This document shows, piece after piece, positions 6,464-30,120 of a DNA stretch of 30,174 nt. The translations under genes and the position numbers were made by a program. Each line of letters opens with the position of its first letter. The first letter of the stretch is position 1. Origin of the DNA: Frankiales bacterium (GTDB taxonomy: Bacteria; Actinomycetota; Actinomycetes; Mycobacteriales; SCTD01); NCBI GenBank assembly GCA_025965495.1, contig JAOPWW010000339.1:1-30174 (forward strand), given 5' to 3'. The notes below the pieces were generated by a model. That model saw nothing but the letters and a program-made list of their open reading frames with translations. It searched no databases and had not been told where the DNA came from.

Positions 6464-6465
6464 CC

Positions 6466-7380: not shown

Positions 7381-7422
7381 CCCGTCCGGCTCCTCCCGTC
7401 TGCAGATCGAAGGACCCCTCGC

Positions 7423-8319: not shown

Positions 8320-8352
8320 CGGAGCGCACCACCTCGACGAAGGAGCACGGAC

Positions 8353-9726: not shown

Positions 9727-11277
9727 TCAGTGAAAGCGCGACCGCAGCTCGACCTTGAGGACCTTGCCGGTCGGGTTGCGCGGCAGCGCGTCGAGCACCT
9801 CGAGGCGCTTGGGCAGCTTGTAGCGCGCGAGGCGCGCACCGGTGTAGGCGCGGACGTCCTCCAGGGTCGGGGCCTCGGCGCCCGGCGCCAGGGCGACGAC
9901 CGCGCACACCGCCTCGCCCCACTGCTCGTCGGGCACGCCGATCACCGCGACCTCGACGATCGCCGGGTGGTCGTACAGCACGCTCTCGATCTCGGCCGGG
10001 TAGATGTTCTCCCCGCCGGAGATGACCATGTCCTTGATGCGGTCCGAGACGTAGTAGAAGCCGTCGGCGTCCCGGTGGCCACCGTCGCCGGTGTGCAGCC
10101 AGCCGTCGGCGTCGATCGCCTTGGCGGTCGCCCCGGGGTCGTCGAGGTAGCCGAGCATCACGACCGGGCCGCGGGCGCAGATCTCGCCGACGGTGTCCGG
10201 CTCGGTGACGGTCCGGCCCTCGACGTCCTTGAGGCAGATCTCGACGAACATCGGCGGCCGGCCGGTGGAGCCGAGCTTGCTGAGGGCGTACTCCGGCGTG
10301 AGGAAGCAGAGCATCGGGGAGGCCTCGGTGAGCCCGTAGCCCTGCGCGAAGTCGATCCCCCGCGCGAGGTAGGTGCGGATCAGGCCCTCGGGCAGGGGCG
10401 CCCCGCCGCACAGGCAGCTGCGCAGGGTGCGGAGGTCGGTGTCGGCGAACGTCGGGTGCGCGGCCATGAACTGGAACATGGCCGGCACGCCGAACATCGT
10501 CGTGACGCGGTGCTCGGCGACGGCCGCCAGAGCCGCGCCCGGCTCGAACGCCCGCTGCACGACCAGGTGGCCGCCCTTGATCCAGGTCGCGAGCGTGAGG
10601 CAGTTGAGCGCCCCGATGTGGAAGAGCGGGGCCACGACCAGGGAGACGTCGTCGTAGCCGAGGTCCATGGTGGTGATGAAGTTGACGTTGTTCCACCACA
10701 TGCTGGCGTGGCTGAGCATCGCGCCCTTCGGGCGGCCCGTCGTGCCGGACGTGTACATGATCGCCGCGCAGTCCTCGGGGCGGGTCGGGGCCAGCTCCGC
10801 GAGCGGCTCGTGCGCCGCGACGAGGTCCTCCCAGGACTCCCAGCCCTCGCCTGCACCGTCGACGGCGACGTACCGCTCGACGGTGCCCAGCCCGCTGCGC
10901 AGGCCGTCCACGAGCGGGCGGTGCACGCCGTCGACGAGCAGGACCCGGACCCGGGCGTGGTCGATCATGTACGCGAGCTCGGGTCCGGTGCACCGGAAGT
11001 TCAGCGGCACGTACGTGGCGCCGAGCGCCGCGGCGGCGAACAGCCCCTCGAGGATCTGGGGCTGGTTGTGCCCGAGGAACGCCACCCGGTCCCCGGGCCC
11101 GACCCCGGAGCTCTGCAGCGCTGCCGCCAGGCGCCGGGTCCGGTCCTCGAGCTGCCCGTAGGTCTGCGTGACGCCCTCGAAGGTGATCGCGGGTCGCTCC
11201 GGGGTGGAGCGGGCGCGCCCGGCGAACCAGGCCGCCAGCGTGAGGTCGGCGGGCGCTGCGAGGGCGCGGTCGTTCAT
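9727..11277 (-). CDS. Long-chain-fatty-acid--CoA ligase family protein (FadD/MenE-like)
   Basis: YTSGTTGRPKG, QGYGLTE, WLHTGD, DRIKDMVISGGENIYPAEIE, RNPTGKVLK; start taken at ATG 11277 (MNDRAL). Confidence 0.9.
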   Translation of the reverse strand: MNDRALAAPADLTLAAWFAGRARSTPERPAITFEGVTQTYGQLEDRTRRLAAALQSSGVGPGDRVAFLGHNQPQILEGLFAAAALGATYVPLNFRCTGPELAYMIDHARVRVLLVDGVHRPLVDGLRSGLGTVERYVAVDGAGEGWESWEDLVAAHEPLAELAPTRPEDCAAIMYTSGTTGRPKGAMLSHASMWWNNVNFITTMDLGYDDVSLVVAPLFHIGALNCLTLATWIKGGHLVVQRAFEPGAALAAVAEHRVTTMFGVPAMFQFMAAHPTFADTDLRTLRSCLCGGAPLPEGLIRTYLARGIDFAQGYGLTEASPMLCFLTPEYALSKLGSTGRPPMFVEICLKDVEGRTVTEPDTVGEICARGPVVMLGYLDDPGATAKAIDADGWLHTGDGGHRDADGFYYVSDRIKDMVISGGENIYPAEIESVLYDHPAIVEVAVIGVPDEQWGEAVCAVVALAPGAEAPTLEDVRAYTGARLARYKLPKRLEVLDALPRNPTGKVLKVELRSRFH

Positions 11278-12576: not shown

Positions 12577-13532
12577 GCAGCTCCCTCGCCCGCAGACTGC
12601 GGGACCCGCTCGCCCTGCCGGTCATCGTCGCGCCGATGTTCCTCGTCTCGGGTCCCGAGCTCGTCGTCGCGTCCTGCCGGGCCGGCGTCATGGGCTCGAT
12701 CCCCACCCAGAACGCGCGCACCTTCGAGCAGCTCGACGCGTGGATCGGCCAGATCAAGGACGGCATCGCCGACCTTCCCGACCCGCGGTGGGCCGTGTCC
12801 ATGATCGTCCACAAGACGTACGAGCGCTTCGACGCCGAGCTCGCGCTGATGACCGAGCGCAGGCCCGACGTCGTCATCACCGCGCTGGGGTCCCCGGCCC
12901 GCGTCGCCGACGCCGTCCACGGCTACGGGGGAGCGGTGTTCGCCGACGTCATGTCCGTCGAGCACGCCCGCAAGGCCGCCGACGCGGGGGCCGACGGCCT
13001 GGTGCTGGTCTGCCACGGCGCGGGCGGGCACACCGGCCGGTACAGCGCGTTCGCCATGGTCGACGAGGTCCGAGCCTTCTTCGACGGCCCGCTCGTCGTC
13101 GGCGGGGCGGTCTCGACCGGCCGCGGCGTCCTCGCCGTCGAGGCCCTCGGCGCCGACCTCGCCTACATGGGCACCCGGTACATCGCCTGCCCCGAGTCCA
13201 TGGTGGGCGCCCGGTACCGCGAGCTGCTGGTGCAGGCCGACATCACCGGGGTGACGGCCACCGCGGCGGTCACCGGGGTGCTCTGCTCCTGGCTCAGCGA
13301 CAGCCTGGCCGAGGCCGGCTACGACGCGCAGGCCCTCACCGCCGCGGGGCAGGTCGACTTCTCCGACGTCCACGGCGAGAACAAGCCCTGGAAGGACATC
13401 TTCGGAGCCGGCCAGGGGGTCGGGGCGATCGCGGCGGTGGAGACCGTCGAGGCCGTCACGCAGCAGCTGCTCGGCGAGTACCGCGAGGCCCTGGACGGGG
13501 TCAGCGGCCGGTCTGCCGCGCTGTCCGTCTGA
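12573..13532 (+). CDS. Nitronate monooxygenase / FabK-like FMN oxidoreductase family
   Basis: PVIVAPMFLVS, GAGGHTG, VGGAVSTG, AYMGTRYIA, GAGQG motifs; ATGA overlap with the ACAD. Confidence 0.85.
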   Translation: MSSSLARRLRDPLALPVIVAPMFLVSGPELVVASCRAGVMGSIPTQNARTFEQLDAWIGQIKDGIADLPDPRWAVSMIVHKTYERFDAELALMTERRPDVVITALGSPARVADAVHGYGGAVFADVMSVEHARKAADAGADGLVLVCHGAGGHTGRYSAFAMVDEVRAFFDGPLVVGGAVSTGRGVLAVEALGADLAYMGTRYIACPESMVGARYRELLVQADITGVTATAAVTGVLCSWLSDSLAEAGYDAQALTAAGQVDFSDVHGENKPWKDIFGAGQGVGAIAAVETVEAVTQQLLGEYREALDGVSGRSAALSV

Positions 13533-13606
13533 TCCTGGTTCGTCCCGTGCCTGCCTGCGTGAGCCCGCTGTTCCGGTGGATGGGCGTCCGGGGCCTCGCG
13601 GAGGTG

Positions 13607-13622
13607 TGGTCAGACCTATAGT
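13607..13622 (+). promoter_or_regulatory. FadR/GntR-family operator 3 (TGGTC-A-GACCT) overlapping a -10 box TATAGT
   Basis: Shares GGTCAGACCT exactly with operator 2; -10 at 13617-13622, 34 nt before the TTG start at 13657. Confidence 0.65.
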
Positions 13623-13656
13623 CGTGACGTCCGCCACTCGACCGAGGGAGCAGCCG

Positions 13657-14307
13657 TTGCCCAGCGCCGTGCTGCTCGACGACCACCAGGTCGTCCTCGA
13701 CGGCCTGGCCGTCGCCCTCGAGCGGGGCGGCTTCGAGGTCCTCGCCTGCAGCACCCGGCCGAGCGAGGCGCTGGACGAGGTCCGGCGCCACACGCCCGAC
13801 CTGTTCGTCTGCGACTGGTGGCTCGGCCAGGAGCAGGCGGCCGCCCACGTCGCGGAGGCGCGCCGCCTCAGCCCGACGACCCGGGTCGCCGTCCTCACGG
13901 GCCACGAGGACGGCTCCGTCGCCGCTGCCGCCCTGAACGCCGGCGCCAACGGCTTCCTCGTCAAGGACGCCCTGCGCCAGGACCTCGTCCAGCAGCTGCT
14001 GCAGGTGGCCAGCGGACAGCTGGTCCTGGACGCCCGCGTGTCCGAGCACGTCCTGTCGCCGGCGAAGTACCGCCTGACCCCGCGCGAGGAGGCCGTGGTC
14101 ATCGCCATCGCCGCCGGCCGCACCAACCGTGAGATCGCCGCCGAGCTGATGCTCAGCGCCCACACGGTCAAGGAGCACGTCGGCAACGTCATGCGCAAGC
14201 TCGGCACGACCAGCCGCGCGCAGACCGCCGTCGTCGCCATGACCGCCGGTCTGGTCCCGCCCACGCAGTCGCCCGTCCGGGGCGGCCTCGCCGGCGGTCG
14301 CCGGTGA
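13657..14307 (+). CDS. NarL/LuxR-family response regulator
   Basis: SD GAGGGAG then TTG; receiver LLDDH, phospho-Asp in VCDW, LTG, LVKD; HTH LTPREEAV...TNREIAAELMLSAHTVKEHV. Confidence 0.9.
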   Translation: MPSAVLLDDHQVVLDGLAVALERGGFEVLACSTRPSEALDEVRRHTPDLFVCDWWLGQEQAAAHVAEARRLSPTTRVAVLTGHEDGSVAAAALNAGANGFLVKDALRQDLVQQLLQVASGQLVLDARVSEHVLSPAKYRLTPREEAVVIAIAAGRTNREIAAELMLSAHTVKEHVGNVMRKLGTTSRAQTAVVAMTAGLVPPTQSPVRGGLAGGRR

Positions 14308-15692
14308 ACGTCGTCGCCCCGGTCGGCCGCCGCGCCCCGTCGGGGACGACCCCGACGCTCACGCCTGCGTCGCGGCGCAAGGCCCCGCCGCCCGCGCCCG
14401 CTCCCGTCCCGACAGGGGCCCGGGTGCCGCGCACCGTGGGCATCGTGGCGAGCACCCTCACCCGGGCCAGCGCGACCCTGCGGACGGCCGGCACTGGGAC
14501 CGCCGCCGTGAGCAAGCTCGCCAAGGAGCTCTGCCAGGTGCTCGGAGGCACCCGCGCGCTGGTGCTGGTCCTGGACGAGAAGGGCGCGGTCACGGGTCGT
14601 GGCGGCCACGCCCTGCCGGGCAGCGGCTGGACCGGTGAGCTGGGGGACCTCGCCGCGGAGCCCCTCCTGAGGAAGCTGCTCGAGGGGGGCGACATCCGGC
14701 TCGTCGCCCCGTGCACGTCCGTGCCCCTCGGACCCCGCACCCGCTCGGCCTTCCGGGCCGGGCGGCCGCTGCTGCTGCTCCCGCTCCCGTGCGGCGTCCC
14801 CGCGGACGAGGCGGTCGGCGTCGCCGTGGTGGAGGGGCCGCTCGGCCTGGCCCACGACGTCGGCCGCGACCAGCAGCTGCGCCAGCTCTCCGGGGTCCTC
14901 GCCCTCGTCGCCGGGGCCAGCGCGCTGGGGGAGGCGGACGCCACGCGCGCCACCGCCGAGGCGCAGGGCTGGCTCGCCGCCGACCTGCACGACGGCGTCC
15001 TCCAGCAGCTGTTCTGCCTGCAGCTCAAGCTGCGCAACCTCGGCGACACCCTGCCCGAGAGCAGCCCGGCCCGAGCCGGGTTCGACGCGGTGGTCCGCGA
15101 CGTCGAGGCCACCAGTCTCGAGCTGCGCCGCGCGGTGGTCGGCCTGACGCTGCACGGCGACGTCCCGCGCCGGGGTCCGCGACAGGCGTCGGCGTCCCTG
15201 CCGCCGCCCGGCAGTGCGCTCGGCGAGGGAGGTCGGCTGCACCCGCAGGGCGCGCGGCTCGACGCCGAGATCGAGGCCATGCTCGCCGACTTCCAGGAGG
15301 CCACCGGCTGCGCCTTCGACTTCCTCGTCCGTGGCGACGACCTCGGGACGCCGTCGCCGACCGCCGCCGCCCTCATCAGCCGCACGGTGCGCGAGGGCCT
15401 GACCAACATCAGCAAGCACGCGGACGCCACGCAGGTCGTCCTGTCTCTCGGTCGCGGCGCCGGCTGGTGGACCGTGGACCTGCACGACGACGGCCTGGCC
15501 GACGCGAACGTGCTGCGCCGGCGGCTCACCCAGCGCACCGGCGGCTTCGGCCTCGCCAGCCTGCGCACGCAGGCCGCGGACCTCGGCGGCCGGCTGTGGG
15601 TCGGGCAGTCCACCACCCTCACGGGGGTCCACCTGTCCGTGGCCATCCCGGTCGACAGCCCGTCCGGCGACGCGCCGGGGGTCGCCGGGTGA
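14304..15692 (+). CDS. Cytoplasmic HisKA_3 sensor histidine kinase with a degenerate GAF-like input region
   Basis: H-box ADLHDGVLQQL, N-box EGLTNISKHA, DDG, G2 GGFGL; no clear TM segment; GTGA overlap; exact start uncertain. Confidence 0.82.
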   Translation: MNVVAPVGRRAPSGTTPTLTPASRRKAPPPAPAPVPTGARVPRTVGIVASTLTRASATLRTAGTGTAAVSKLAKELCQVLGGTRALVLVLDEKGAVTGRGGHALPGSGWTGELGDLAAEPLLRKLLEGGDIRLVAPCTSVPLGPRTRSAFRAGRPLLLLPLPCGVPADEAVGVAVVEGPLGLAHDVGRDQQLRQLSGVLALVAGASALGEADATRATAEAQGWLAADLHDGVLQQLFCLQLKLRNLGDTLPESSPARAGFDAVVRDVEATSLELRRAVVGLTLHGDVPRRGPRQASASLPPPGSALGEGGRLHPQGARLDAEIEAMLADFQEATGCAFDFLVRGDDLGTPSPTAAALISRTVREGLTNISKHADATQVVLSLGRGAGWWTVDLHDDGLADANVLRRRLTQRTGGFGLASLRTQAADLGGRLWVGQSTTLTGVHLSVAIPVDSPSGDAPGVAG

Positions 15693-16363
15693 GCACCGCG
15701 ACCGGACCGCTGCTGCAGGTGCGCGACCGCGCGCGGGGCGACCTCGAGGTGCCGCACGGCGGGGTCGTCGTGCTGCTGGCCCCGTCCGGCGGGGGCAAGA
15801 CCCAGTGGGTGCGCGCCCTGCTCGGGCTCGACGGCGGCCGGATGGACGAGGTGCGGGTCGACGGCCGCAAGGCCGACACCCAGGCGGTGCGCAAGGCGGT
15901 CGGCTGGGTCCCCGAGGGCGACGGAGCGGTCCTCGACCTGACCGTCTGGGACAACGTCGCGTGCCCCCCTCACCTGCCGCCGGTCCCGCACGCCGACGCC
16001 GCGGACGCGCTCGACCTGCTGGGCCTGACCGCTCTCAGCCGGCACCGCGCCTGGTCGCTGAGCCGCAACGACCGCCGACGCGTCGCGCTCGCGCGCGTGG
16101 TGGCGCGCCGCAACCCGCTGCTCGTCGTCGACGGCGACCTCGACGCCACCCTGATGCCCCTGCTGCTCCCCCTGCTCGAGCAGGCACCGGGGCTGCAGGG
16201 CGTGCTGCTGACCTCCTCGCGCGCCGGGGACCTGGCCTGGCGGGCCGGGTCGGTCGGCCTGATGCTCGAGGGTCGGGTGCTCGAGCAGGCGCCCTGGGCC
16301 GAGCTGGTCACGGCGCAGCGCAGCCCGGTGCGCGACGCCGTCCTGTGGGTGCAGCCGCAGTGA
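15689..16363 (+). CDS. Degenerate (probably catalytically dead) MceG/MlaF-like ABC ATPase-fold protein
   Basis: Walker A APSGGGKT kept; Q-loop, signature (LSRND), Walker B Glu (VVDG) and H-loop (LTSS) lost; colinear with 19136-19933; GTGA overlaps at both ends. Confidence 0.75.
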   Translation: MSTATGPLLQVRDRARGDLEVPHGGVVVLLAPSGGGKTQWVRALLGLDGGRMDEVRVDGRKADTQAVRKAVGWVPEGDGAVLDLTVWDNVACPPHLPPVPHADAADALDLLGLTALSRHRAWSLSRNDRRRVALARVVARRNPLLVVDGDLDATLMPLLLPLLEQAPGLQGVLLTSSRAGDLAWRAGSVGLMLEGRVLEQAPWAELVTAQRSPVRDAVLWVQPQ

Positions 16364-16935
16364 GCAAGCGCCGCCGCCCGTCCGGCCAGCGTCGTCCCGC
16401 GCAGCGGCGATCTGCTGCCGCGACCCCGCCCAGCAGTCCTGCCGCGCCTGCTGCGCGGACCGCCCCCGCTGCCCGGACCGCCTCCGCTGCGCCGACCGGC
16501 CCCGCACCCGGTCGTCCGGCTGCGGCTGCCCGTCCGGCTCCTTCCGGCGCCGTCCCGGTGTTCGACGTGCCGGAGCTGGTGCGCGGGGCGTCGTCGGGGT
16601 TCAGCGTCCTGCTGCTCGGCAGCGCGGCGCAGCCGATCGCGAGCGCGGTCAGCTCCCAGCTCGGCCTGCTGTGGCTGAGCCTCACCGCGGCCCTCGCCTT
16701 CGTGCTGGCCGGCCGGCGGGTCGGCGCCGCGGGTCGCCCGCTCCTGCAGGGCCCGGTCGCGGCGGTCCTGGCCTTCACCCTCACGCTGCCCCTGGTGGTG
16801 GTCCTGCAGGGCGGGCTGCACGTGGTGCAGTCGGCCGTGACGCTCGTCTACGCCGTCGTCGTGGGGGCGTTCGCCACCCGCCTGCCCCGGCGCGCGCCAC
16901 GCTCGCGGGGGACCCGCGAGGGCCAGGGCGCCTAG
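16360..16935 (+). CDS. Small membrane protein: basic Pro/Ala-rich N-terminal tail plus about 4 TM helices
   Basis: GTGA overlap; four hydrophobic stretches after about residue 70; no recognisable catalytic motif. Confidence 0.7.
   Translation: MSKRRRPSGQRRPAQRRSAAATPPSSPAAPAARTAPAARTASAAPTGPAPGRPAAAARPAPSGAVPVFDVPELVRGASSGFSVLLLGSAAQPIASAVSSQLGLLWLSLTAALAFVLAGRRVGAAGRPLLQGPVAAVLAFTLTLPLVVVLQGGLHVVQSAVTLVYAVVVGAFATRLPRRAPRSRGTREGQGA
16450..16503 (+). repeat. 3 x 18-nt imperfect tandem repeat encoding AARTAP-AARTAS-AAPTGP
   Basis: gctgcgcggaccgccccc / gctgcccggaccgcctcc / gctgcgccgaccggcccc. Confidence 0.7.
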
Positions 16936-16946
16936 TCCTTCCTGAC

Positions 16947-16976
16947 CATCCCCACCCCCCCGAACGGGGGGAGATG
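16947..16976. promoter_or_regulatory. C-run/G-run inverted repeat (terminator or regulator-binding site)
   Basis: CATC..CCCCCCC-GAAC-GGGGGG-A-GATG in the 113-nt gap before yrbEA. Confidence 0.45.
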
Positions 16977-17020
16977 CCCGACATGCGGTGGGTTATGCCA
17001 GGCACCTGTGACCTCTTACG

Positions 17021-17034
17021 GTGACGCGAGTCAC
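17021..17034. promoter_or_regulatory. CRP/FNR-like palindrome GTGAC-GCGA-GTCAC (GTGA-N6-TCAC)
   Basis: Inverted repeat overlapping a candidate -10 TACGGT (17017-17022), just upstream of SD GGAGGT. Confidence 0.45.
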
Positions 17035-17048
17035 GACGGAGGTAGCCC

Positions 17049-18236
17049 GTGAAGGACGACGACGGACCCGCAGAGGGTCCTGCAGCGAAGGCCGTGCCCA
17101 CGCCTCGCCCGAGGACGCGCACGGTCGCAGTGGAGGCGTCGGCGACGCCTGTGGCGCGCCGCGCCACGAAGCGCCGGACGGCCGGGTCCGTCCCCGTCGT
17201 CTCCCTCGAGGAGGCGTCCGTGGCGCTCGACGACGACGGCCCGAGCCGCTGGGAACTGCTGGACACCGACGGCGAGCCGGCGCAGGACGAAGGGCGCGAC
17301 GCCGCCTTCGCCGGCCTCCCGCCCGCGACGGCGCTCGCGCTGCTCGACGACCCCGAGGAGGCGCAGCGCCTCCAGGTGCCCACCGGGCTCATGGGCAGCG
17401 AGAGCGAGGCCCTCCAGGCGGCCGAGGAGTCGCTGAAGGCCAAGCGCAAGGGCCCGAACGTCCTGGTCCGCGGCCTCGTGGAGCTCGGGGAGATGTCGAC
17501 GATGGGCGCGGCGGTCCTCTACGACGCCGTCCGTCACCCGCGTGGCTACTGGGGCGACGTCCGCGACCAGATGCACAGCATCCTCAAGCTCTGCTGGCTC
17601 CCGATGATCGTCAGCTGCATCGCCTTCGGCCTGGGCGCTCCTGGCCTGCAGGGCGGCAACATCTACAGCCTGTTCGGCATCCCGGACCGCCTCGGCTCGT
17701 TCTTCATCATGGCGTCGGTCCGCGAGTTCGCCCCGTGGATCAACGCCATGGTCGTGGCCGGCGTCGTCGGCACGGCCGTGACCGCCGACCTCGGCGCCCG
17801 GCGCATCCGCGAGGAGATCGACGCGCTCGAGGTGCTCGGCATCGACGTCATGCGCAGCCTGATCCTGCCGCGTGTGCTCGGCCTGATGTTCATGACCGGC
17901 CTGCTGGACCTGCTGGCCCTGGCCTGCGGCATCGTCGGCGGCTTCATCGCCGCCGTCCCGATCCTGGGCTCCAGCCCCGGTGCGTTCTACGGCAGCTTCT
18001 TCGCCAACGCAAACGTCGTCGACCTGCTCGGCTCGGTCATCAAGACCTCGTGCTTCGGGCTCTTCGTCGGCGTCATCTGCTGCTACAAGGGCTACACGGC
18101 CAAGGGTGGCCCGATCGGCGTCGGACGTGCCGTGAACCAGGCCGTCGTCATCAGCTTCGCCGCGATCTGGATCTTCAACTACGTGTTCACCGCCACCATG
18201 CTCGGGCTCTTCCCCGAGATCCAGGTCTTCCGGTAG
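17049..18236 (+). CDS. yrbEA: YrbE/MlaE-family permease subunit A with a long N-terminal extension
   Basis: VREFAP...AGVVGTAVTADLGARRIREEIDALEVLGID, GYTAKGGPIGVGRAVNQAVV; SD GGAGGT before GTG. Confidence 0.9.
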   Translation: MKDDDGPAEGPAAKAVPTPRPRTRTVAVEASATPVARRATKRRTAGSVPVVSLEEASVALDDDGPSRWELLDTDGEPAQDEGRDAAFAGLPPATALALLDDPEEAQRLQVPTGLMGSESEALQAAEESLKAKRKGPNVLVRGLVELGEMSTMGAAVLYDAVRHPRGYWGDVRDQMHSILKLCWLPMIVSCIAFGLGAPGLQGGNIYSLFGIPDRLGSFFIMASVREFAPWINAMVVAGVVGTAVTADLGARRIREEIDALEVLGIDVMRSLILPRVLGLMFMTGLLDLLALACGIVGGFIAAVPILGSSPGAFYGSFFANANVVDLLGSVIKTSCFGLFVGVICCYKGYTAKGGPIGVGRAVNQAVVISFAAIWIFNYVFTATMLGLFPEIQVFR

Positions 18237-18249
18237 AGGGTCGCTGACA

Positions 18250-19122
18250 ATGACTACGATGTTGATCCCCCCGGACGTCCGCGAGGACGACCAGTTCCAG
18301 GACTTCGAGCCGCAGGGCGTCACGTTCACGCCCGGCACCTTCGCCGACAAGGCGAAGGAGATGCTGCGCACCTTCGGCGAGCTCGCCCGGTTCAGCGTCG
18401 CCACCGTCAAGTCCATCCCCGGCCTGCGCAGCTACAGCAGCGAGGTGCTCCGTCAGACGTCGATCCTGGTGCTCTCCAGCGGTCTGATCATCTGGCTGAT
18501 GCTGTTCGTGATGGGTTCCGTCTGCGGCGTCGAGGCGAACTACACCCTCAAGCAGATCGGCGCCCCGCTCTACTCCGGCGTCTTCACCGCCTACTGCGGG
18601 CTGCGCGAGATGGCGCCGTACATGTGGGGCTACATCCTCGCGGCCAAGGTCGGCTGCGGCCTCGTCGCCGAGATCGGCTCCATGCGGATCTCCGAGGAGG
18701 TCGACGCGATGGAGGTCATGGGCGTCGACTCCATGACCTACCTCGTCGCCGCCCGCGTCGTGGCCGCCTGGATCGCCATGCCGTTCCTCTACATCGTCGG
18801 CCTCGGGCTGCTCGACCTGTCCGAGTACCTGGTGGTGGTGGTCCAGCTCAGGGGCGTCTCGGCCGGCGCCTACTCGTTCATCTTCTGGCTGTACCAGAAC
18901 CCCGCCGACCTGCTGTTCAGCCTCGCCAAGGCGATGGCCATGGGCACGGTGATCGTCTTCGTCGGCTGCTTCTACGGCTACACGACGCGCGGCGGACCGG
19001 TGAACGTCGGCCGCAACACCGCGAAGTCCATGGTCCTGAACATGGTGCTCGTCCACGTCGTGGGCCTGCTCGGCACCCAGCTGTTCTGGGGCCTCGCTCC
19101 CAACGCCCCCATCGCGAACTGA
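18250..19122 (+). CDS. yrbEB: YrbE/MlaE-family permease subunit B
   Basis: LREMAP...AAKVGCGLVAEIGSMRISEEVDAMEVMG, GYTTRGGPVNVGRNT. Confidence 0.92.
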   Translation: MTTMLIPPDVREDDQFQDFEPQGVTFTPGTFADKAKEMLRTFGELARFSVATVKSIPGLRSYSSEVLRQTSILVLSSGLIIWLMLFVMGSVCGVEANYTLKQIGAPLYSGVFTAYCGLREMAPYMWGYILAAKVGCGLVAEIGSMRISEEVDAMEVMGVDSMTYLVAARVVAAWIAMPFLYIVGLGLLDLSEYLVVVVQLRGVSAGAYSFIFWLYQNPADLLFSLAKAMAMGTVIVFVGCFYGYTTRGGPVNVGRNTAKSMVLNMVLVHVVGLLGTQLFWGLAPNAPIAN

Positions 19123-19135
19123 GAAGGCTGCCCCG

Positions 19136-19933
19136 ATGACTGCTCCCACGATGCACCCCGGCACCCGCCGCCCCGACCTCGAGAACGCGGTCGAGGTGAC
19201 CGACCTGCACAAGAAGTTCGGCGACTTCGAGGTCCTCAAGGGCCTCGACATGAACTTCAAGAACGGCGCGATCACCACGGTCCTCGGTCCGTCCGGCACC
19301 GGCAAGAGCGTGCTGCTCAAGCACATGGTCGCCCTGCTGGAGCCCGACCGCGGCGACGTCGTGTTCTACGGCGAGAAGGTGTCCGGGATGACGCAGGCCG
19401 AGAAGCTGCAGATGCGGCAGCGCTACGGCGTCCTGTTCCAGGACGGCGCGCTCTTCGGCTCGATGAACATCTACGACAACGTCGCCTTCCCCCTCCGCAA
19501 GCACACCGACAAGTCGGAGGAGGAGATCCGCGACCTCATCATCCGGCGCCTGACCGAGGTCGGCCTGGACCGGTCCTTGACCAAGTTCCCGAACGAGGTC
19601 TCGGGCGGGATGCGCAAGCGCGCCGGCTTCGCCCGGGCGCTCGTGCTCAACCCCGACGTCGTGCTGTTCGACGAGCCCGACTCCGGCCTCGACCCGGTCC
19701 GCACCAGCCTGCTCAACGACCTGATCCTGGACATGCACGCCGAGCACGGCGGCACGTACCTCCTGGTCACCCACAACATCCCGACGGCGCGCAAGGTCAG
19801 CGACTACGTCGGCCTCGTCTGGCAGGGCCGCAAGATCCACTACGGCCCGACCGAGGAGGCGTTCGACAGCGAGGACCCGTTCGTCCGCCAGTTCCTCGCG
19901 GGTGACTCGGCCGGCCCGCTCGGGATGGACTGA
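19136..19933 (+). CDS. mceG: MceG/Mkl/MlaF-family ABC ATPase (intact)
   Basis: GPSGTGKS, LFQDGALF, VSGGMRKRAGFARAL, LFDEPDSGLDP, VTHN, SEDPFVRQFL. Confidence 0.92.
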   Translation: MTAPTMHPGTRRPDLENAVEVTDLHKKFGDFEVLKGLDMNFKNGAITTVLGPSGTGKSVLLKHMVALLEPDRGDVVFYGEKVSGMTQAEKLQMRQRYGVLFQDGALFGSMNIYDNVAFPLRKHTDKSEEEIRDLIIRRLTEVGLDRSLTKFPNEVSGGMRKRAGFARALVLNPDVVLFDEPDSGLDPVRTSLLNDLILDMHAEHGGTYLLVTHNIPTARKVSDYVGLVWQGRKIHYGPTEEAFDSEDPFVRQFLAGDSAGPLGMD

Positions 19934-26417: not shown

Positions 26418-27721
26418 AGCTGCACTTCTCCGCCGCCTCGCTGCCCCGCTGGCGCCTGGGGACCGTCGTGGTCTTCACCCTGCTCAGCCTGGCGATGTTC
26501 CTGTTCCTCTGGGTCAACAGCGGCGGTCACCTCCCGGGCGTCGGCAACACGTACAGGGTCGCCGTCCAGGTGCCGAACGCCCAGAACCTCGTCGCGAACT
26601 CCGACGTCACGGTCGCCGGAGTGAAGATCGGCAAGGTCGAGTCGATCAAGACCGTGAACGGCGTCGCCCGGGCCGTCCTCGGCCTGGACCACGAGGTCGT
26701 CCCGCTGCACGAGGGCGCCACGGTGGCCCTGCGCAGCAAGACCCTCATCGAGGAGACGTACCTCGACATCTCCGACGGCTCCGGCAAGGCCATGGCGAGC
26801 GACGCGGTGCTGCCCGTCACGGCGACCAAGCCGGCCGCGCACCTCGACGACGTCCTGAACAGCCTCGACAAGCCGACGCTCACCGCCCTCGGACAGCTGG
26901 TCCGCAGCGGGGACGACGCGACGCAGGGTCGCTCGGCGGACATCGCCGCGACGCTCTCGGCCCTGGGCGTCCTCGGTCGGGACGGGCACGACGTCCTCGA
27001 CGCCCTCGCGGCCCAGGGCGAGGACCTCAAGACGCTGTCGCGCAGCACGACCCGGGTCCTGTCGGCGCTGGACACGAACCAGGGCGACATCTCCACCCTC
27101 GTCACCGCGGCCTCGGGCAACATGCGGGCCGGCGCGGCCCAGAAGGACGCGATCGCGGCCACCGTGACCCGTCTGCCCGGGACGCTGCGGTCGGCGCGCG
27201 CCGCCACCACGGACCTCCGCGTCCTGTCCCGCGACCTCGCTCCCGTCGCCCGCAACCTCAAGGTCGCGGCACCCGGCCTGCGCAGCACCGTCGCGGAGCT
27301 CCCGGAGGCCACCCGCCAGCTGGAGGCGACGATCCCGTCGCTGAACACGCTGCTCGACCGCGCACCGGCCACCCTGACCCGGGTGCCCGCCTTCAGCTCC
27401 GCCACCAGCGGGCTGGTCCCGCCGGCGCGGCAGGTCATGGCCGACCTCAACCCGATGCTCGGCTACCTCGAGCCGTACGGCCCGGAGATCTCCGCCTTCT
27501 TCACGACCATCGGCGGCGCCGTCAACCCGGTCGACGGGAACGGCGGGTACATCCGGGTCAACGCGATCTTCCAGCCCCAGTCGGTGACCGGGCTCCCCGT
27601 CGCCACCAACGGGCTGACCCCGGGGACGGGCGCGAACCCCTACCCTGCGCCGGGTGAGAACCGCGCCCCGAAGCCCGTGTTCACCGGCACGTACACGAGG
27701 GTGACCAGGGACGTGCCGTGA
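26414..27721 (+). CDS. mce: MCE-family protein 6
   Basis: N-terminal TM; NLVANSDVTVAGVKIGKV...TLIEETYLDI; DGNGGYIR; GTGA overlap. Confidence 0.88.
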   Translation: MKLHFSAASLPRWRLGTVVVFTLLSLAMFLFLWVNSGGHLPGVGNTYRVAVQVPNAQNLVANSDVTVAGVKIGKVESIKTVNGVARAVLGLDHEVVPLHEGATVALRSKTLIEETYLDISDGSGKAMASDAVLPVTATKPAAHLDDVLNSLDKPTLTALGQLVRSGDDATQGRSADIAATLSALGVLGRDGHDVLDALAAQGEDLKTLSRSTTRVLSALDTNQGDISTLVTAASGNMRAGAAQKDAIAATVTRLPGTLRSARAATTDLRVLSRDLAPVARNLKVAAPGLRSTVAELPEATRQLEATIPSLNTLLDRAPATLTRVPAFSSATSGLVPPARQVMADLNPMLGYLEPYGPEISAFFTTIGGAVNPVDGNGGYIRVNAIFQPQSVTGLPVATNGLTPGTGANPYPAPGENRAPKPVFTGTYTRVTRDVP

Positions 27722-30120
27722 GGTGGTCCCGCTCTCCGGCGGGACCTGGCACCGACCCGGACAGTCCGCCGCGACGCCGGCACGCGCGCCTCGCGCGTGC
27801 CGGCGCCGCGGCCGCCGTGGTGGCGGTGCTCGCCGTCCTGCTCGGTGGTGTCGCCCAGGTCCGCTTCGACACGAGCTTCTCCTCCCTGTTCGACCAGGGC
27901 ACCCGTGAGGGACGCGACTACGCCGGTGTCCAGAAGTCCTTCGGCGCGGAGCCGATCACGGTCCTCGTCGAGAGGCCCGGGGAGCCGAAGGCGCTGCTCA
28001 AGAGCGCCACGCTGCCCGCCCTGCTCAAGCTGGAGGGCGAGCTCGCCGGCCTCGACGACGCCGCGGTCGTCTACGGCCCGGCGACGGTCCTCAACCAGAT
28101 CGCCGCCAGCGCCCAGAAGTTCATCGTCCAGGTCACGGGCACCCGGGACGGCCTGCGGCAGCGGGCGGTCAAGGAGGCGAAGGAGCGGGGTGCGACCGAC
28201 GCCGAGGCGGCAGCCGCCGGCGACCGGGCGCTCGTGCCGTTCGACGAGCGGTACGGCGCCCTGCTGACCCAGGGCCTGCCGGCCGGCCTGCCGACGCTGC
28301 GCAACCAGAACTTCATCGACGCCACCGCGTACGGCAAGGACGGGAAGCCCCGGCCCGAGCTCCGGTTCGTCGTGCCGGACTCCACGTCGGTCGCGATCCT
28401 CGTCCGGCCCCGCGAGGGACTGGACCAGGACGCGGAACGGCGCCTCGAGTCGCAGATCCACGGCGTGCTGCGGCAGGACCCGATCCCCGGCAGTCACGTC
28501 CTGGTGACGGGTCCGGCCGTCGTGCTGCAGGCCCTCGCCGTGGACGTCCAGGGTCAGCTCCCCCTGCTGGCGGTGCTGGCCGTGGTCGCCGTCGCGACCA
28601 TGCTGCTCCTCGGGCACCGCCGCGACCTCCGGTCACCGCGGCGCGCGGCGCGCCTGCTCGTGCCGCTGCTGGCCAGCCTCGGTGCCGTGCTCGTCCTGAC
28701 CTCGGTGCTCGGCTGGGCGGACGTCCCGGCCACGCTCGGTCTGCTCACCCTGCTGCCCGTGCTGCTCGGCGTCGGCACCGACGTCCCGGTCTACCTCTCC
28801 CGGCTCGGCAAGGACCGTCGGCTGGCGGTCGCTGCGCTCGCCACCGGCGCCGGCTTCTACAGCACCGCGCTGTCCCCGGTCCCCTTCGTGCGCGGCCTCG
28901 GGCTGCTGCTCGGCACCGGTGTCCTGCTGGCCGCGGCGATCGGCTGGTTCCTGCCGGCGGTGGAGCCCCAGCAGCGCCCCGCTGCCGTCGCGCGCACCGC
29001 GACGACGCCCCGGTTCCCCGTGCGGACGCTGCGGGCGCTCACCCTCGTGGCTGCCGTCGTGGCCGCCGCCGGCTGGGCGGTGCTGCCCTCGATCGGCATC
29101 ACCTCCGACCCCGCCAGCCTGGCCAGCGGCCTCGGCGCCCTCGACGACGCCCACCGGGCGCAGGACAGGCTGGGCGCGATCAGCGAGATCGACGTGCTGC
29201 TCCGGGGCGACGCCCTCAGCCCGGCGGCGCTCGCGTGGTCGACGAAGGCCGCGGAGGCGGTGATCGTCCACGACGCCGACCGGCTCAAGCCGATCTCCTC
29301 GCCGGCGTCGCTGCTGGGCTTCCTCGGGCCGACGCCGACCACCGAGCAGGTCCGGTCGGCGGTCCAGCTCCTGCCGGCCTACCTGCTCGGGGTCGCCGTC
29401 GCGCCCGACGGCCAGTCCTCCGTCCTGTCCTACGGCCTGCGGGCCGACGACGTCGCCGGCCAGCAGGACCTCGTCGACTCCCTGCGCCGGCTGCTCCCGC
29501 CGCCGCCCCGCGACACCACCGTGTCGGTGACCGGAGTCCCGGTCCTCGCGAGCGCGCAGCTGCAGGAGCTCGAGCGCAGCCGGGTCAGTGCCAACGTCAT
29601 CGGTGTGCTCGTGCCGAGCCTGGTCCTGCTCCTGCTGCTCGGGCGGAGCCGCTGGCGCGACAGCGCCCTCGCTGCCAGCGCTGCGGTCATCGCCACCGGG
29701 ACCGGGTTCCTCCTGCTGTGGACCGCGGGCATCGCCTTCACGCCGTTGACCCTCGCCCTCGGCTCGCTCACGGCGGCGGTCGGGTGCGAGTTCAGCGTCG
29801 TCCTCGGGTCACGGCAGGGCGAGGACAGCCGCAGGGGCGTCCTGCTCGCCGCCGGCGCGTGCCTGGCCGGCTACCTGTCCCTGGCGGTGTCCGGGCTCGA
29901 CGTCATCCGGGACTTCGGGCTCGTCCTCGCCGGCTCCGTCGTCCTGGGCTACGCCAGCTCCCGGCTGGTCACGGCCGCCTGGGTGCCGACCGGCGCGGCC
30001 GACGGCGGAACGGCCCGAGGCGGCGTCAGGCAGGCAGACTCCGACCCGGCAGCACACGACGACGGTCCGGCGGACGCCCGCCGCCCCAGCCCCGCGATGA
30101 CCAGGAGTGCGACCACATGA
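27718..30120 (+). CDS. MMPL/RND-superfamily transporter (two TM+loop repeats, about 12 TM)
   Basis: TM1, large extracytoplasmic loop, VTG, 5 TMs, repeated twice; TM4 GVGTD and TM10 AVGCEF acidic motifs; SPVPFVRGLG / SGLDVIRDFG repeats. Confidence 0.8.
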   Translation: MRWSRSPAGPGTDPDSPPRRRHARLARAGAAAAVVAVLAVLLGGVAQVRFDTSFSSLFDQGTREGRDYAGVQKSFGAEPITVLVERPGEPKALLKSATLPALLKLEGELAGLDDAAVVYGPATVLNQIAASAQKFIVQVTGTRDGLRQRAVKEAKERGATDAEAAAAGDRALVPFDERYGALLTQGLPAGLPTLRNQNFIDATAYGKDGKPRPELRFVVPDSTSVAILVRPREGLDQDAERRLESQIHGVLRQDPIPGSHVLVTGPAVVLQALAVDVQGQLPLLAVLAVVAVATMLLLGHRRDLRSPRRAARLLVPLLASLGAVLVLTSVLGWADVPATLGLLTLLPVLLGVGTDVPVYLSRLGKDRRLAVAALATGAGFYSTALSPVPFVRGLGLLLGTGVLLAAAIGWFLPAVEPQQRPAAVARTATTPRFPVRTLRALTLVAAVVAAAGWAVLPSIGITSDPASLASGLGALDDAHRAQDRLGAISEIDVLLRGDALSPAALAWSTKAAEAVIVHDADRLKPISSPASLLGFLGPTPTTEQVRSAVQLLPAYLLGVAVAPDGQSSVLSYGLRADDVAGQQDLVDSLRRLLPPPPRDTTVSVTGVPVLASAQLQELERSRVSANVIGVLVPSLVLLLLLGRSRWRDSALAASAAVIATGTGFLLLWTAGIAFTPLTLALGSLTAAVGCEFSVVLGSRQGEDSRRGVLLAAGACLAGYLSLAVSGLDVIRDFGLVLAGSVVLGYASSRLVTAAWVPTGAADGGTARGGVRQADSDPAAHDDGPADARRPSPAMTRSATT

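What the first reader, a model, noticed from the sequence alone, without database searches (positions are those of the whole stretch)
15689..16363. Intact but catalytically dead MceG-like ATPase near a functional mceG
Seen: colinear with 19136-19933 (GVLFQDGALFGSMNIYDNVAFP vs GWVPEGDGAVLDLTVWDNVACP; VSGGMRKRAGFARAL vs LSRNDRRRVALARVV; LFDEPDSGLDP vs VVDGDLDA; VTHN vs LTSS; SEDPFVRQFL vs AQRSPVRDAVL). The Q-loop Gln, signature glycines, catalytic Glu and switch His are all lost, and the D-loop is shortened, but Walker A Lys/Thr is kept. The frame is unbroken, third positions are strongly G/C and both ends are coupled. Known: these residues are needed for ATP sandwiching and hydrolysis. Inference: a selected pseudo-enzyme that may bind nucleotide without hydrolysis, acting as an ATP sensor, a decoy for YrbE docking, or an adaptor to the kinase.
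Basis: partly seen in the sequence, partly recalled or inferred. Interest (0 to 1): 0.8.

Follow-up and report, generated by a model that had tools for sequence, protein, structure and literature searches.

The report
Conserved dead ABC ATPase beside Mce
This intact gene encodes an ATPase look-alike that keeps its nucleotide-binding loop but has lost the parts needed to split ATP; evolution has kept it as a fixed extra part of an unusual actinobacterial Mce lipid-uptake gene cluster that also carries a normal ATPase.

Summary
Observation confirmed. Window 15689-16363 (+) is a real 224-aa gene, joined to both neighbours by GTGA overlaps, with an ABC nucleotide-binding-domain (NBD) fold (Pfam 56 bits; AF2 pLDDT 95). 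It keeps Walker A, the Walker B Asp and the D-loop Leu-Asp. It lacks the A-loop segment, the signature Gly-Gly, the catalytic Glu and the H-loop His.

It is not a one-off decay product. It belongs to a distinct family (more than 570 metagenomic homologues, Actinomycetota/Acidimicrobiia) that shows the same losses in 131 of 131 members. dN/dS is 0.15-0.26, as low as for neighbouring genes.

A specific MceG relationship is unproven. MlaF models are not preferred, fold searches do not discriminate, and the tree neither supports nor rejects it (AU p 0.43).

The family is tied by synteny to a rare, extra mce locus: yrbEAB-mceG-mce x6, MMPL-like, PpiC rotamase, 2-TM, dead NBD, 4-TM. A GAF/HisKA_3-LuxR two-component system sits beside it in four loci. 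One relative (G416) carries only a broken remnant.

Best reading (inferred): a non-hydrolysing, probably nucleotide-binding, membrane-docked accessory or regulatory subunit, not the motor.

Other agents of this scan noted dead ATPases in Mla/MCE operons of other phyla. I found no published description.

The parts
15689..16363 (+). Dead ABC NBD gene (224 aa, P0001). It belongs to a distinct degenerate-NBD family.
15779..15802 (+). Walker A / P-loop, APSGGGKT (residues 31-38). This motif is essentially invariant in the family.
   Evidence: G130, S130, G130, G131, K131, T128 of 131
15914..15916 (+). Q-loop position, Glu76 in place of Gln.
   Evidence: E117, Q8, D6 of 131
16058..16081 (+). Degenerate signature, LSRNDRRR (residues 124-131), in place of LSGGQxQR.
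   Evidence: L131; P89/S16/T14; R117; variable; G100/E21; RRR
16118..16144 (+). Walker B strand LLVVD, Gly149 in place of the catalytic Glu, and a D-loop Leu151-Asp152 shortened by 3 residues.
   Evidence: D131/131; next residue G128/S2/D1; L129, D130
16217..16219 (+). H-loop position, Ser177 in place of His.
   Evidence: A105, C12, S6, T5, G2; no His in 131
13576..14307 (+). LuxR/NarL-type response regulator, first gene of the four-gene overlapping unit.
   Evidence: Response_reg 65 bits, GerE 62 bits; GTGA overlap
14304..15692 (+). Cytoplasmic HisKA_3 histidine kinase with no predicted TM helix. Its stop overlaps the dead-NBD start.
   Evidence: orthologues in L126 and L124 carry GAF
16360..16935 (+). 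Small membrane protein: an Arg/Pro/Ala-rich tail followed by a conserved core of about 115 aa with 3-4 TM helices. Its start overlaps the dead-NBD stop.
17049..19122 (+). yrbEA (17049-18236, with an N-terminal extension of about 170 aa) and yrbEB (18250-19122), the MlaE-type permeases.
   Evidence: MlaE 195 and 190 bits
19136..19933 (+). Canonical mceG (P0002), the real ATPase of the locus.
   Evidence: MlaF model is the best hit, 197 bits
19933..27721 (+). Six mce genes (MlaD domain).
27718..30120 (+). MMPL-like 800-aa membrane protein. It shows the same rare phyletic pattern as the dead NBD.

Best explanation
The gene encodes a stand-alone ABC-type nucleotide-binding domain (NBD) that is a selected pseudo-ATPase.

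Shown:
- It has a confident NBD fold.
- Its family keeps the P-loop, the Walker B Asp and the D-loop Leu-Asp.
- Its family lacks the A-loop segment, the signature Gly-Gly, the catalytic Glu and the H-loop His, and no substitute catalytic residue is conserved.
- The family is under purifying selection.
- The gene is a fixed member of a rare extended mce locus: yrbEAB-mceG-mce x6, MMPL-like protein, PpiC rotamase, small 2-TM protein, dead NBD, small 4-TM protein.
- That locus carries its own canonical MceG.

Inferred:
- The protein cannot run the ATP-sandwich and hydrolysis cycle, so it is not the motor.
- It probably still binds a nucleotide through the intact P-loop.
- It works at the cytoplasmic face of the membrane, docked to the small TM proteins whose genes overlap its own and/or to another membrane part of the machine (YrbE or the MMPL-like protein).
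- It acts there as an accessory subunit that stabilises or regulates this Mce-type lipid importer.
- In the window's lineage the pair (dead NBD and 4-TM protein) has been placed behind a cytoplasmic HisKA_3/LuxR two-component system and directly upstream of yrbEA. Its dosage therefore probably follows that signalling system.
For: - Fold: AF2 pLDDT 95.1, pTM 0.91; all top PDB neighbours are ABC NBDs.
- Family: 573 homologues at E <= 1e-3, the listed ones 47-58% identical and 203-236 aa. A search of 1.84 billion representative proteins gives 11 representatives at E < 1e-30, then a gap down to generic ABC proteins. The family is monophyletic at 100/100 support.
- Motif pattern in 131 members: Walker A about 100% kept; Walker B Asp 131/131; next residue G128/S2/D1; the residue after that variable (E99, D15, A11, P5), so no relocated catalytic base; no His at the H-loop; no SGG signature.
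- Selection: NG86 dN/dS 0.15-0.26 at dS 0.4-0.8. This is equal to or lower than for the neighbours LOG, rotamase and MceE.
- Synteny: mce genes lie within 10 kb in 14 of 15 loci with enough flank. A rotamase and/or an MMPL-like gene lies next to the dead NBD in every informative locus.
- Overlapping or 4-bp junctions join the gene to the 4-TM gene (window, L001, L140), the 2-TM gene (L003, L140) and the MMPL-like gene (L002).
- Phyletic match: the MMPL-like protein and the dead NBD occur in the same 3 of 41 relatives. Neither was found in the 151 genomes searched for the MMPL-like protein or the 401 searched for the dead NBD across the phylum. MceG is common by comparison: 25 of 41 relatives, and 10 of 61 in the phylum counting the window's own genome.
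- A canonical mceG is present in every locus where the operon start is visible: window, L001, L046, G401, G416.
Against: - No binding or activity data exist. Nucleotide binding is inferred from motifs only, and the A-loop is missing.
- The physical partner is unknown.
- One subclade, the LOG-type loci (those with a LOG-family, Lysine_decarbox Pfam, gene upstream on the opposite strand: L002, L045, L123, L125, L043, L047, L049), has neither small TM gene next to it yet is still under selection. The TM proteins therefore cannot be the only partner.
- One relative (G416) keeps the locus but has only a frameshifted remnant with a 54-aa deletion, so the protein is dispensable in some backgrounds.
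- Most mce-bearing Actinomycetota have no such gene.
Confidence: 0.55

Rival explanations
1. Decoy or brake. The dead NBD occupies an NBD docking site on YrbEA/B, or pairs with MceG. Each composite ATP site would then carry a defect: its own site lacks Glu and His, and MceG's site faces a dead signature. That would hold the transporter off. The role would be analogous to Mce1N, which blocks MceG binding to YrbE1B.
For: - The NBD fold, P-loop and D-loop Leu-Asp are conserved, and the D-loop matters mainly in NBD dimers.
- The gene always lies in a locus with yrbEAB and a fully canonical MceG.
- The LOG-type subclade has no small TM partner, so a universal partner such as YrbE or MceG is needed.
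- Precedent for assembly-blocking regulation of Mce1: 10.1101/2022.06.08.495402 and the review PMC13492129.
- Weak MceG-like traits: the C-terminal S-x-D-P-x-V-R motif, and 4 of 28 MceG-specific columns shared.
Against: - The sequence is not specifically MceG-like.
- It lacks the MceG C-terminal GP(I/L)GM tail.
- Its gene is never translationally coupled to yrbE or mceG. It is coupled to small TM, MMPL-like or kinase genes.
- No interaction data exist.
Confidence: 0.2
2. Kinase adaptor or ATP sensor. The dead NBD, with the 4-TM protein, feeds a membrane or energy-state signal into the cytoplasmic HisKA_3 kinase. The LuxR-type regulator of that kinase controls the mce locus.
For: - RR, HK, dead NBD and 4-TM genes are joined by three GTGA overlaps in the window.
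- The kinase has no TM helix or recognised sensor domain in the window.
- An orthologous GAF-HisKA_3/LuxR pair lies next to the dead NBD, divergently, in L124, G401 and G416.
Against: - Only 4 of about 17 loci have the two-component system.
- In three of them it looks like an insertion between the 2-TM gene and the dead NBD gene.
- The family is conserved and selected where no kinase is nearby.
Confidence: 0.1
3. Functionless relic. The gene is a decaying copy of an ABC ATPase that happens to be still open in this genome.
For: - All catalytic motifs are lost.
- The G416 orthologue is frameshifted and lacks 54 aa including the signature and Walker B.
- The gene was not found in 22 of 24 genomes of the same family searched.
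Against: - ORFs are intact in 16 independent loci.
- dN/dS is 0.15-0.26, like the neighbours.
- The P-loop, Walker B Asp and many other columns are invariant over sequences only 40-55% identical.
- The AF2 model has pLDDT 95.
- GC3 is 0.95-1.0.
Confidence: 0.04
4. Still an enzyme. The protein is an unconventional ATPase or GTPase that powers a minimal split permease made of the 2-TM and 4-TM proteins, using residues other than the canonical ones.
For: - The P-loop, Walker B Asp and an acidic or amide Q-loop residue are kept.
- 2-TM and 4-TM genes flank the gene in deep-branching loci L139 and L140, giving 6 TM helices plus an NBD.
- Arg126 is conserved at the first signature Gly position (R117 of 131).
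Against: - No conserved acidic residue follows Walker B, and there is no His or other conserved polar residue at the H-loop.
- The signature and A-loop are missing.
- Both TM genes are absent from a whole selected subclade.
Confidence: 0.06

Closest known systems
MceG / Mkl / MlaF, the ATPases of MCE-type lipid transporters (M. smegmatis Mce1, PDB 8fed; MlaFEDB, PDB 6xbd, 7d06, 7ch8)
   Same: It has the ABC NBD fold (TMq 0.72-0.78; VIA Z 19.4-21.3). It is encoded in an mce locus. It shares a C-terminal S-x-D-P-x-V-R-x-x-L motif and a few MceG-typical residues.
   Different: It is only 25% identical to MceG. The MlaF model is not a preferred hit. Every catalytic motif except Walker A and the Walker B Asp is lost. 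The C-terminal GP(I/L)GM tail is absent. It is about 40 residues shorter. It co-exists with a canonical MceG rather than replacing it. Clustering with MceG on the tree is unresolved (AU p 0.43-0.69).
Degenerate NBDs of heterodimeric ABC transporters (TM287/288, TmrAB, PatAB, CydDC, CFTR NBD1; own knowledge, plus papers listed)
   Same: These are NBDs that keep nucleotide binding but lack the catalytic Glu and His.
   Different: In those systems only one composite site is degenerate. The degenerate NBD keeps a canonical signature for the partner's active site, and the partner's signature is the degenerate one. Here both faces of one protein are degenerate and the candidate partner MceG is fully canonical. 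The protein is also a separate polypeptide added on top of a complete transporter.
Mce1N (MSMEG_0959 / Rv0513), negative regulator of Mce1 (10.1101/2022.06.08.495402; PMC13492129)
   Same: It is a possible functional analogue: an accessory protein of an Mce system that could act at the YrbE-MceG interface without catalysis.
   Different: There is no homology. Mce1N is a membrane protein with a cytoplasmic domain, not an NBD. Its gene is not in the mce locus. The inhibitory role of the present protein is only a hypothesis.
LucB and Mam/Omam accessory subunits of mycobacterial Mce systems (PMC13492129)
   Same: They are small membrane proteins or accessory factors that are encoded with, or bind to, Mce complexes. 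The 4-TM partner here is a tetraspan of similar size to LucB.
   Different: The accessory set here differs: an MMPL-like protein, a PpiC rotamase, 2-TM and 4-TM proteins and a dead NBD. No sequence match of the 4-TM family to any PDB chain, LucB included, was found. No cytoplasmic NBD-like accessory factor is listed for mycobacterial Mce systems.
Dead MlaF-like ATPases in Mla/MCE operons noted elsewhere in this scan (e1-4444467, e1-2400331, e1-3849364 and others; unchecked AI notes)
   Same: They are conserved, catalytically dead NBDs inside MCE-type lipid-transport loci.
   Different: Those are reported from Gram-negative and other phyla, as the only ATPase of the operon. They share no sequence words with this protein. 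Here the dead NBD is additional to a working MceG.

Membership tests
ABC transporter NBD superfamily (Pfam PF00005) | Profile match above the curated threshold | tested here: met
   ABC_tran 56.1 bits against a cut-off of 25, residues 18-148
ABC transporter NBD superfamily (Pfam PF00005) | RecA-like core plus helical subdomain fold | tested here: met
   AF2 pLDDT 95.1; Foldseek E 1e-15 to 1e-13 and VIA Z 18-22, to ABC NBDs only
ABC transporter NBD superfamily (Pfam PF00005) | Walker A GxxGxGK[ST] | tested here: met
   APSGGGKT in the window; G-P-S-G-A-G-K-T in nearly all of 131 members
ABC transporter NBD superfamily (Pfam PF00005) | Signature motif LSGGQ | tested here: not met
   LSRND in the window; no member of 131 has Ser-Gly-Gly
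ABC transporter NBD superfamily (Pfam PF00005) | Walker B hhhhD followed by the catalytic Glu, and the H-loop His | tested here: not met
   Asp148 is kept in 131 of 131. The next residue is G128/S2/D1. The H-loop position is A, C, S, T or G and never His
MceG / Mkl / MlaF family | Best and above-threshold match to the family model (NCBIfam NF008809 MlaF) | tested here: not met
   MlaF is not among the 25 best models for P0001, P0037 or P0101, and no model reaches its cut-off. The window's MceG hits MlaF first at 197 bits
MceG / Mkl / MlaF family | Groups with MceG orthologues on a tree of NBDs | tested here: inconclusive
   The careful tree does not place it as sister to MceG. Forcing one clade costs 1.3 lnL (AU p 0.43). 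On the quick tree the forced clade was 6.6 lnL better (p 0.69). Both stems are about 1 change per site, so long-branch attraction is a risk
MceG / Mkl / MlaF family | Encoded with yrbE (MlaE) and mce (MlaD) genes | tested here: met
   14 of 15 loci with enough flank
MceG / Mkl / MlaF family | ATP hydrolysis that energises the transporter | not testable with these tools
   The motifs predict no hydrolysis. An assay is needed
Degenerate NBD of a heterodimeric ABC transporter with one consensus site | Defects confined to one composite site: own Walker B and H-loop plus the partner's signature, with own signature canonical | tested here: not met
   Own signature, Walker B Glu and H-loop are all degenerate. 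The candidate partner MceG has canonical Walker A, Q-loop, SGG, DE and His
Mce accessory or regulatory factors (functional class, not a homology family) | Conserved co-location and co-occurrence with an Mce system | tested here: met
   Synteny (and others). The phyletic pattern is identical to that of the MMPL-like gene of the same locus
Mce accessory or regulatory factors (functional class, not a homology family) | Physical association with the Mce complex and an effect on its stability or activity | not testable with these tools
   Needs pull-down, co-purification or genetics

The most novel reading that the evidence does not exclude
The dead NBD is the second NBD of an intrinsically asymmetric Mce motor. 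It would sit on one YrbE subunit opposite a single MceG. Its P-loop would hold a non-exchanging nucleotide. The family-conserved Arg at the first signature-Gly position (Arg126, R in 117 of 131) would reach into MceG's ATP site in trans. That would give a one-site Mce engine, or a nucleotide-gated brake, of a kind not described for any MCE transporter. The 2-TM and 4-TM proteins would be the remains of its own permease.
Probability: 0.12. Interest if true: 0.8.

Novelty: new variant of a known kind. Interest (0 to 1): 0.55.

Why it matters
Mce systems are the main lipid importers of Actinomycetota. How they are assembled and regulated beyond the YrbE-MceG-Mce core is an open question (review PMC13492129).

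This family would add a new class of accessory factor: a cytoplasmic pseudo-ATPase together with small membrane proteins, an RND-like protein and a PPIase. It would also define a distinct, probably horizontally spread, type of mce locus in uncultured soil Actinomycetota and Acidimicrobiia.

It is also an unusually clean case of a stand-alone ABC NBD that has lost both faces of the ATP sandwich but keeps its P-loop under selection. That makes it useful for asking what an NBD can do without catalysis.

The main limit is that function is inferred only from motifs, synteny and selection.

Tried and rejected
- Antisense and overlapping long ORFs (for example 14189-16507 on the minus strand): rejected by the GC3/GC2 frame pattern and by homologues.
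- A phylum-wide HMM search at E <= 1e-25 returned only generic ABC proteins (at most 123 bits, against 305 for the window's own gene). A stricter threshold was then used.
- The search for related loci with the broad alignment A2 failed because no stretch was conserved enough. It worked with the narrower A3.
- Origin from MceG was tried with NCBIfam ranks, Foldseek, VIA-align, the ESM Atlas, two trees with AU tests, MceG-specific columns and the C-terminal motif. Nothing was decisive. The DPxV motif also occurs in LivF-type NBDs.
- A catalytic Glu relocated two residues after the Walker B Asp: rejected because that position varies (E99, D15, A11, P5).
- A separate canonical permease partner: none is adjacent. 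The ABC-2 pair 7 kb away in L003 has its own ATPase.
- LucB-likeness of the 4-TM protein: the PDB sequence search found nothing.
- Papers named in earlier scan notes (PMC12436622, PMC13631591) say nothing about degenerate ATPases.
- Literature searches for a degenerate NBD linked to mce found none.
- The promoter/terminator scan was uninformative beyond showing no plus-strand terminator in 13300-17300.
Full report
**1.

The window is 71-78% GC over most of its length, dipping to 66-68% across 18-20 kb, so long spurious ORFs occur in all frames. The third-position GC profile picks out one frame across 15700-16360: GC3 0.95-1.00 and GC2 about 0.5, on the + strand. The ORF 15689-16363 gives 224 residues without a stop (P0001).

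Its GTG start overlaps the TGA of the upstream histidine-kinase gene. Its TGA overlaps the GTG of the downstream gene. The response-regulator/kinase junction is also GTGA. No plus-strand terminator-like site lies in 13300-17300.

Pfam finds ABC_tran at 56.1 bits against a cut-off of 25. BLASTP against the mceG product (19136-19933, P0002) gives a colinear 25% identity over 220 residues, E 6e-9.

- Walker A: APSGGGKT, kept.
- Q-loop: Gln is Glu.
- Signature: LSGGQ is LSRND.
- Catalytic Glu: replaced by Gly.
- A three-residue deletion precedes the D-loop Leu-Asp.
- H-loop: His is Ser.

One loss was not listed. The segment between the first two strands, which carries the A-loop aromatic, is about ten residues shorter and holds no conserved aromatic residue. 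The neighbouring MceG is canonical in every motif.

**2. It is a family, not an accident**

A search of 5.8 billion proteins returned 573 homologues at E <= 1e-3. The 120 listed are 203-236 aa and 47-58% identical, and where named they come from Acidimicrobiia or Actinomycetota MAGs.

An exhaustive phmmer search over 1.84 billion cluster representatives found 11 representatives at E < 1e-30 (124-171 bits). Only fragments followed, and then generic ABC proteins at 75 bits or less. The family is therefore well separated. On trees with the other NBDs of the same genome it is one clade at 100/100 support, with a stem of about 1.1 changes per site.

In 131 members the pattern is uniform:

| Position | Residues in 131 members |
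|---|---|
| Walker A | G130, S130, G130, G131, K131, T128 |
| Q-loop | E117, Q8, D6 |
| Signature | L131; P89/S16/T14; R117; variable; G100/E21; R-R-R |
| Walker B Asp | 131 of 131 |
| Residue after Walker B Asp | G128, S2, D1 |
| Residue after that | E99, D15, A11, P5 |
| D-loop | L129, D130 |
| H-loop | A105, C12, S6, T5, G2 (no His) |

The variable residue two positions after the Asp rules out a relocated catalytic base. The catalytic losses are therefore ancestral to the family. The nucleotide-binding core has been kept.

**3. It is under selection**

I built codon alignments of 14 orthologues taken from fetched loci. For pairs with unsaturated dS (0.40-0.79), NG86 dN/dS is 0.15-0.26. The same pairs give 0.14-0.32 for the neighbouring LOG-family (Lysine_decarbox Pfam) gene, 0.17-0.58 for the rotamase and 0.13-0.42 for mceE. 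Extreme GC3 bias depresses dS, so these ratios are, if anything, overestimates.

The AF2 model built from the family alignment is confident (pLDDT 95.1, pTM 0.91). Its neighbours in the PDB are ABC NBDs only.

**4. Is it MceG-like?**

Only in the sense that every NBD is.
- In the window's own genome, 13 places match P0001 at E <= 1e-5 and MceG is not among them.
- No NCBIfam model reaches its cut-off. The best are sulfate, CcmA, CydD, PotA and FtsE types, and MlaF is not in the top 25 for three family members. The real MceG hits MlaF first.
- Foldseek ranks CbiO, FbpC, CydD, FtsE and MlaF alike (TMq 0.68-0.78; MceG 8fed 0.72).
- The Foldseek-independent search gives ModC Z 21.7, MetN 21.4, MlaF 21.3 and MceG 19.4.
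- The ESM Atlas structure search lists an MlaF cluster first, but at the same TM score (0.84) as several other families.
- On a careful tree with nine MceG orthologues the family is not sister to MceG. Forcing that costs only 1.3 log-likelihood units (AU p 0.43). On the quick tree the forced topology was even slightly better. Both groups sit on long stems, so long-branch attraction is a concern.

Two weak hints of kinship remain. The first is a C-terminal S-x-D-P-x-V-R-x-x-L motif. Among 43 NBDs of the genome it recurs strictly only in MceG, although LivF-type NBDs have a related DPxVxxAYLG. The second is four shared residues among 28 MceG-specific columns, a median of 4 against 2 for other NBDs.

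I conclude that descent from an MceG/MlaF-type importer ATPase is possible but not shown.

**5. Context: a distinct, rare, extended mce locus**

I annotated 17 informative loci, by Pfam from the contig look-ups and by tblastn with the window's proteins.

The recurrent order is: yrbEA, yrbEB, mceG, six mce genes, an MMPL-like protein of 700-800 aa, a PpiC/SurA-type rotamase, a 2-TM protein of 70-90 aa, the dead NBD, and a small protein with a 4-TM core.

mce genes lie within 10 kb in 14 of the 15 loci that have enough flank. The exception, L003, still has the rotamase, a fragment of the MMPL-like gene and both small TM genes. Short contigs (L043, L047, L140) show the rotamase next to the gene.

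Three variants exist:
- (i) Both small TM genes flank the dead NBD: L139 and L140; also L003 with the 4-TM gene displaced; L044 and L048 have only the 2-TM gene, followed by a SnoaL-like gene.
- (ii) A GAF-HisKA_3 kinase plus LuxR regulator is inserted on the other strand between the 2-TM gene and the dead NBD: L124, G401 (L126) and G416 (L137).
- (iii) LOG-type loci have no small TM genes, a LOG-family gene upstream on the other strand and two acyl-CoA dehydrogenases downstream: L123, L125, L043, L047, L049. In L002 and L045 the dead NBD follows the MMPL-like gene after a 3-base gap, and the rotamase and LOG genes lie downstream of it.

The window and its closest relative L001 (58% identity) are rearranged. 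The pair (dead NBD and 4-TM gene) sits directly upstream of yrbEA. In the window it is fused behind the regulator and kinase genes. The window's contig ends 54 bases after the MMPL-like gene, so a rotamase and a 2-TM gene could lie beyond it.

**6. Phyletic pattern**

- Among 41 relatives, the dead NBD was found only in the window's genome and G401. A remnant is present in G416.
- The MMPL-like protein was found in exactly those three genomes.
- Neither was found in the phylum samples: 401 genomes for the dead NBD and 151 for the MMPL-like protein.
- MceG orthologues, in contrast, are in 25 of 41 relatives. In the phylum sample they are in 10 of 61 genomes, counting the window's own.
- G416 carries both the ordinary MceG (51% identical) and the special-locus copy (78%).

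The locus is therefore an additional, sporadically distributed mce system, shared with Acidimicrobiia-type MAGs. Seven GTDB species representatives carry the family.

These negative counts include genomes flagged as unpublished: G001, G048, G088, G120, G318 and G336, and G430. No positive claim rests on them, and I left their loci out of the trees.

**7. Decay in one relative**

In G416 the locus is otherwise intact: mceA-F, mceG, yrbEAB, the MMPL-like gene, the rotamase, the 2-TM gene, regulator and kinase, and the 4-TM gene. The dead-NBD orthologue there has a frame change near Walker A and a 54-residue deletion that removes the signature region and Walker B.

It shows the protein can be lost. 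It does not outweigh the family-wide selection.

The G401 locus shows many frame changes in yrbEA, yrbEB and mceG. I take these for indel errors of a long-read assembly. Its dead-NBD gene is intact.

**8. How it most likely works**

Shown: the fold, the motif pattern, selection, synteny, co-occurrence and the gene overlaps.

Established knowledge of ABC NBDs: the signature and the partner's Walker A sandwich ATP. The Glu after Walker B and the H-loop His drive hydrolysis. The Walker A Lys and Walker B Asp bind the nucleotide and Mg.

Inference: the protein cannot hydrolyse ATP or close a canonical ATP sandwich, but it probably still binds a nucleotide. It is not the motor, because a canonical MceG is always present where the operon start is visible.

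Its gene overlaps or abuts genes for small membrane proteins or the MMPL-like protein. I therefore place it at the cytoplasmic face of the membrane, as an accessory subunit that stabilises or regulates this Mce machine (confidence about 0.55).

Rivals:
- Brake or decoy at the YrbE-MceG interface (0.2). This is attractive because both composite sites of a heterodimer with MceG would be defective, and because Mce1N shows that Mce systems are regulated by blocking MceG docking.
- Adaptor to the cytoplasmic kinase (0.1). The kinase is adjacent in only 4 loci.
- Unconventional enzyme with a split 2-TM plus 4-TM permease (0.06).
- Relic without function (0.04).

**9. Comparison with what is known**

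The literature searches found no description of an NBD-like accessory factor of Mce systems. [quoted passage not shown]

Degenerate NBDs are well known in heterodimeric ABC exporters. There only one composite site is degenerate. Here both faces of a free-standing NBD are degenerate, and it is added to a complete transporter.

Other agents of this scan have noted conserved dead MlaF-like ATPases in Mla/MCE operons of other phyla. These are unchecked notes, and none shares sequence words with this protein. The two papers they cite do not discuss degenerate ATPases.

I therefore class this as a new variant of a known kind. Its interest is moderate.

Noticed in passing
L137 (G416:C271) 8345-8840, minus strand: The orthologue of the dead NBD in a genome of the same family but another genus is a remnant. 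It has a frame change near Walker A and a 54-aa deletion that removes the signature and Walker B. All flanking genes of the locus are intact.
   Followed up: yes
L003 9735-10001; L139 9666-9881; L140 741-950; L044 about 9742-9960; L048 about 9747-9959; L124 7922-8143; L126 14569-14760 (-); L137 10742-10915 (-): A small 2-TM protein (69-90 aa, motif VPHR-L/V-A/S-V-I/L-RRG-x-x-AC) lies directly after the rotamase gene. In several loci it overlaps the start of the dead-NBD gene. It has no Pfam family.
   Followed up: partly
window 16360-16935, and homologues in alignment A4: The 4-TM partner family is small: 14 proteins in 5.8 billion, one annotated as Frankiales. It has an invariant core (RGASSGF...LWLS...AGRRVG...LTLP). 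It has no Pfam hit and no PDB sequence hit, so similarity to LucB is not shown.
   Followed up: partly
window 27718-30120, and orthologues in 12 loci: The MMPL-like protein of 700-800 aa (Pfam MMPL only 21.6 bits) always follows the sixth mce gene in this locus type. It was not found in 150 other genomes of the phylum. Together with a PpiC/SurA-like rotamase it defines a distinct mce locus type.
   Followed up: partly
window 17021-17034: A palindrome, GTGAC-GCGA-GTCAC, lies in the 113-bp, relatively AT-richer gap between the 4-TM gene and yrbEA. It could be an operator or promoter region for the mce operon.
   Followed up: no
window 17049-17570: YrbEA has an N-terminal extension of about 170 aa before the MlaE domain. 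It has no Pfam match and is partly low-complexity. L001 shares it, but L046 and G416 match only from about residue 124.
   Followed up: no
L142 (G401:C11) 6340-8884: In G401 the special-locus yrbEA, yrbEB and mceG read through several frame changes and one TGA. This is probably long-read indel error rather than decay. Similar split hits occur in L002, L045 and L125.
   Followed up: partly
L043 3115-3681 (-), L123 9388-9957 (-), L125 9374-9946 (-), L049 3954-4523 (-), L047 1212-1739 (-); L002 12097-12516 (-) and L045 11956-12474 (-): A LOG-family gene (Lysine_decarbox Pfam) is conserved on the opposite strand in one subclade. In L043, L047, L049, L123 and L125 it lies immediately upstream of the dead NBD. 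In L002 and L045 it lies downstream, after the rotamase. These genes are 84-91% identical among the closest loci (L043, L049, L123, L125). The link to the mce locus is unexplained.
   Followed up: no
window 14304-14970: The N-terminal 220 residues of the kinase have no TM helix and no Pfam domain. The orthologous kinases in L126 and L124 have a GAF domain there (25.9 and 17.9 bits).
   Followed up: partly
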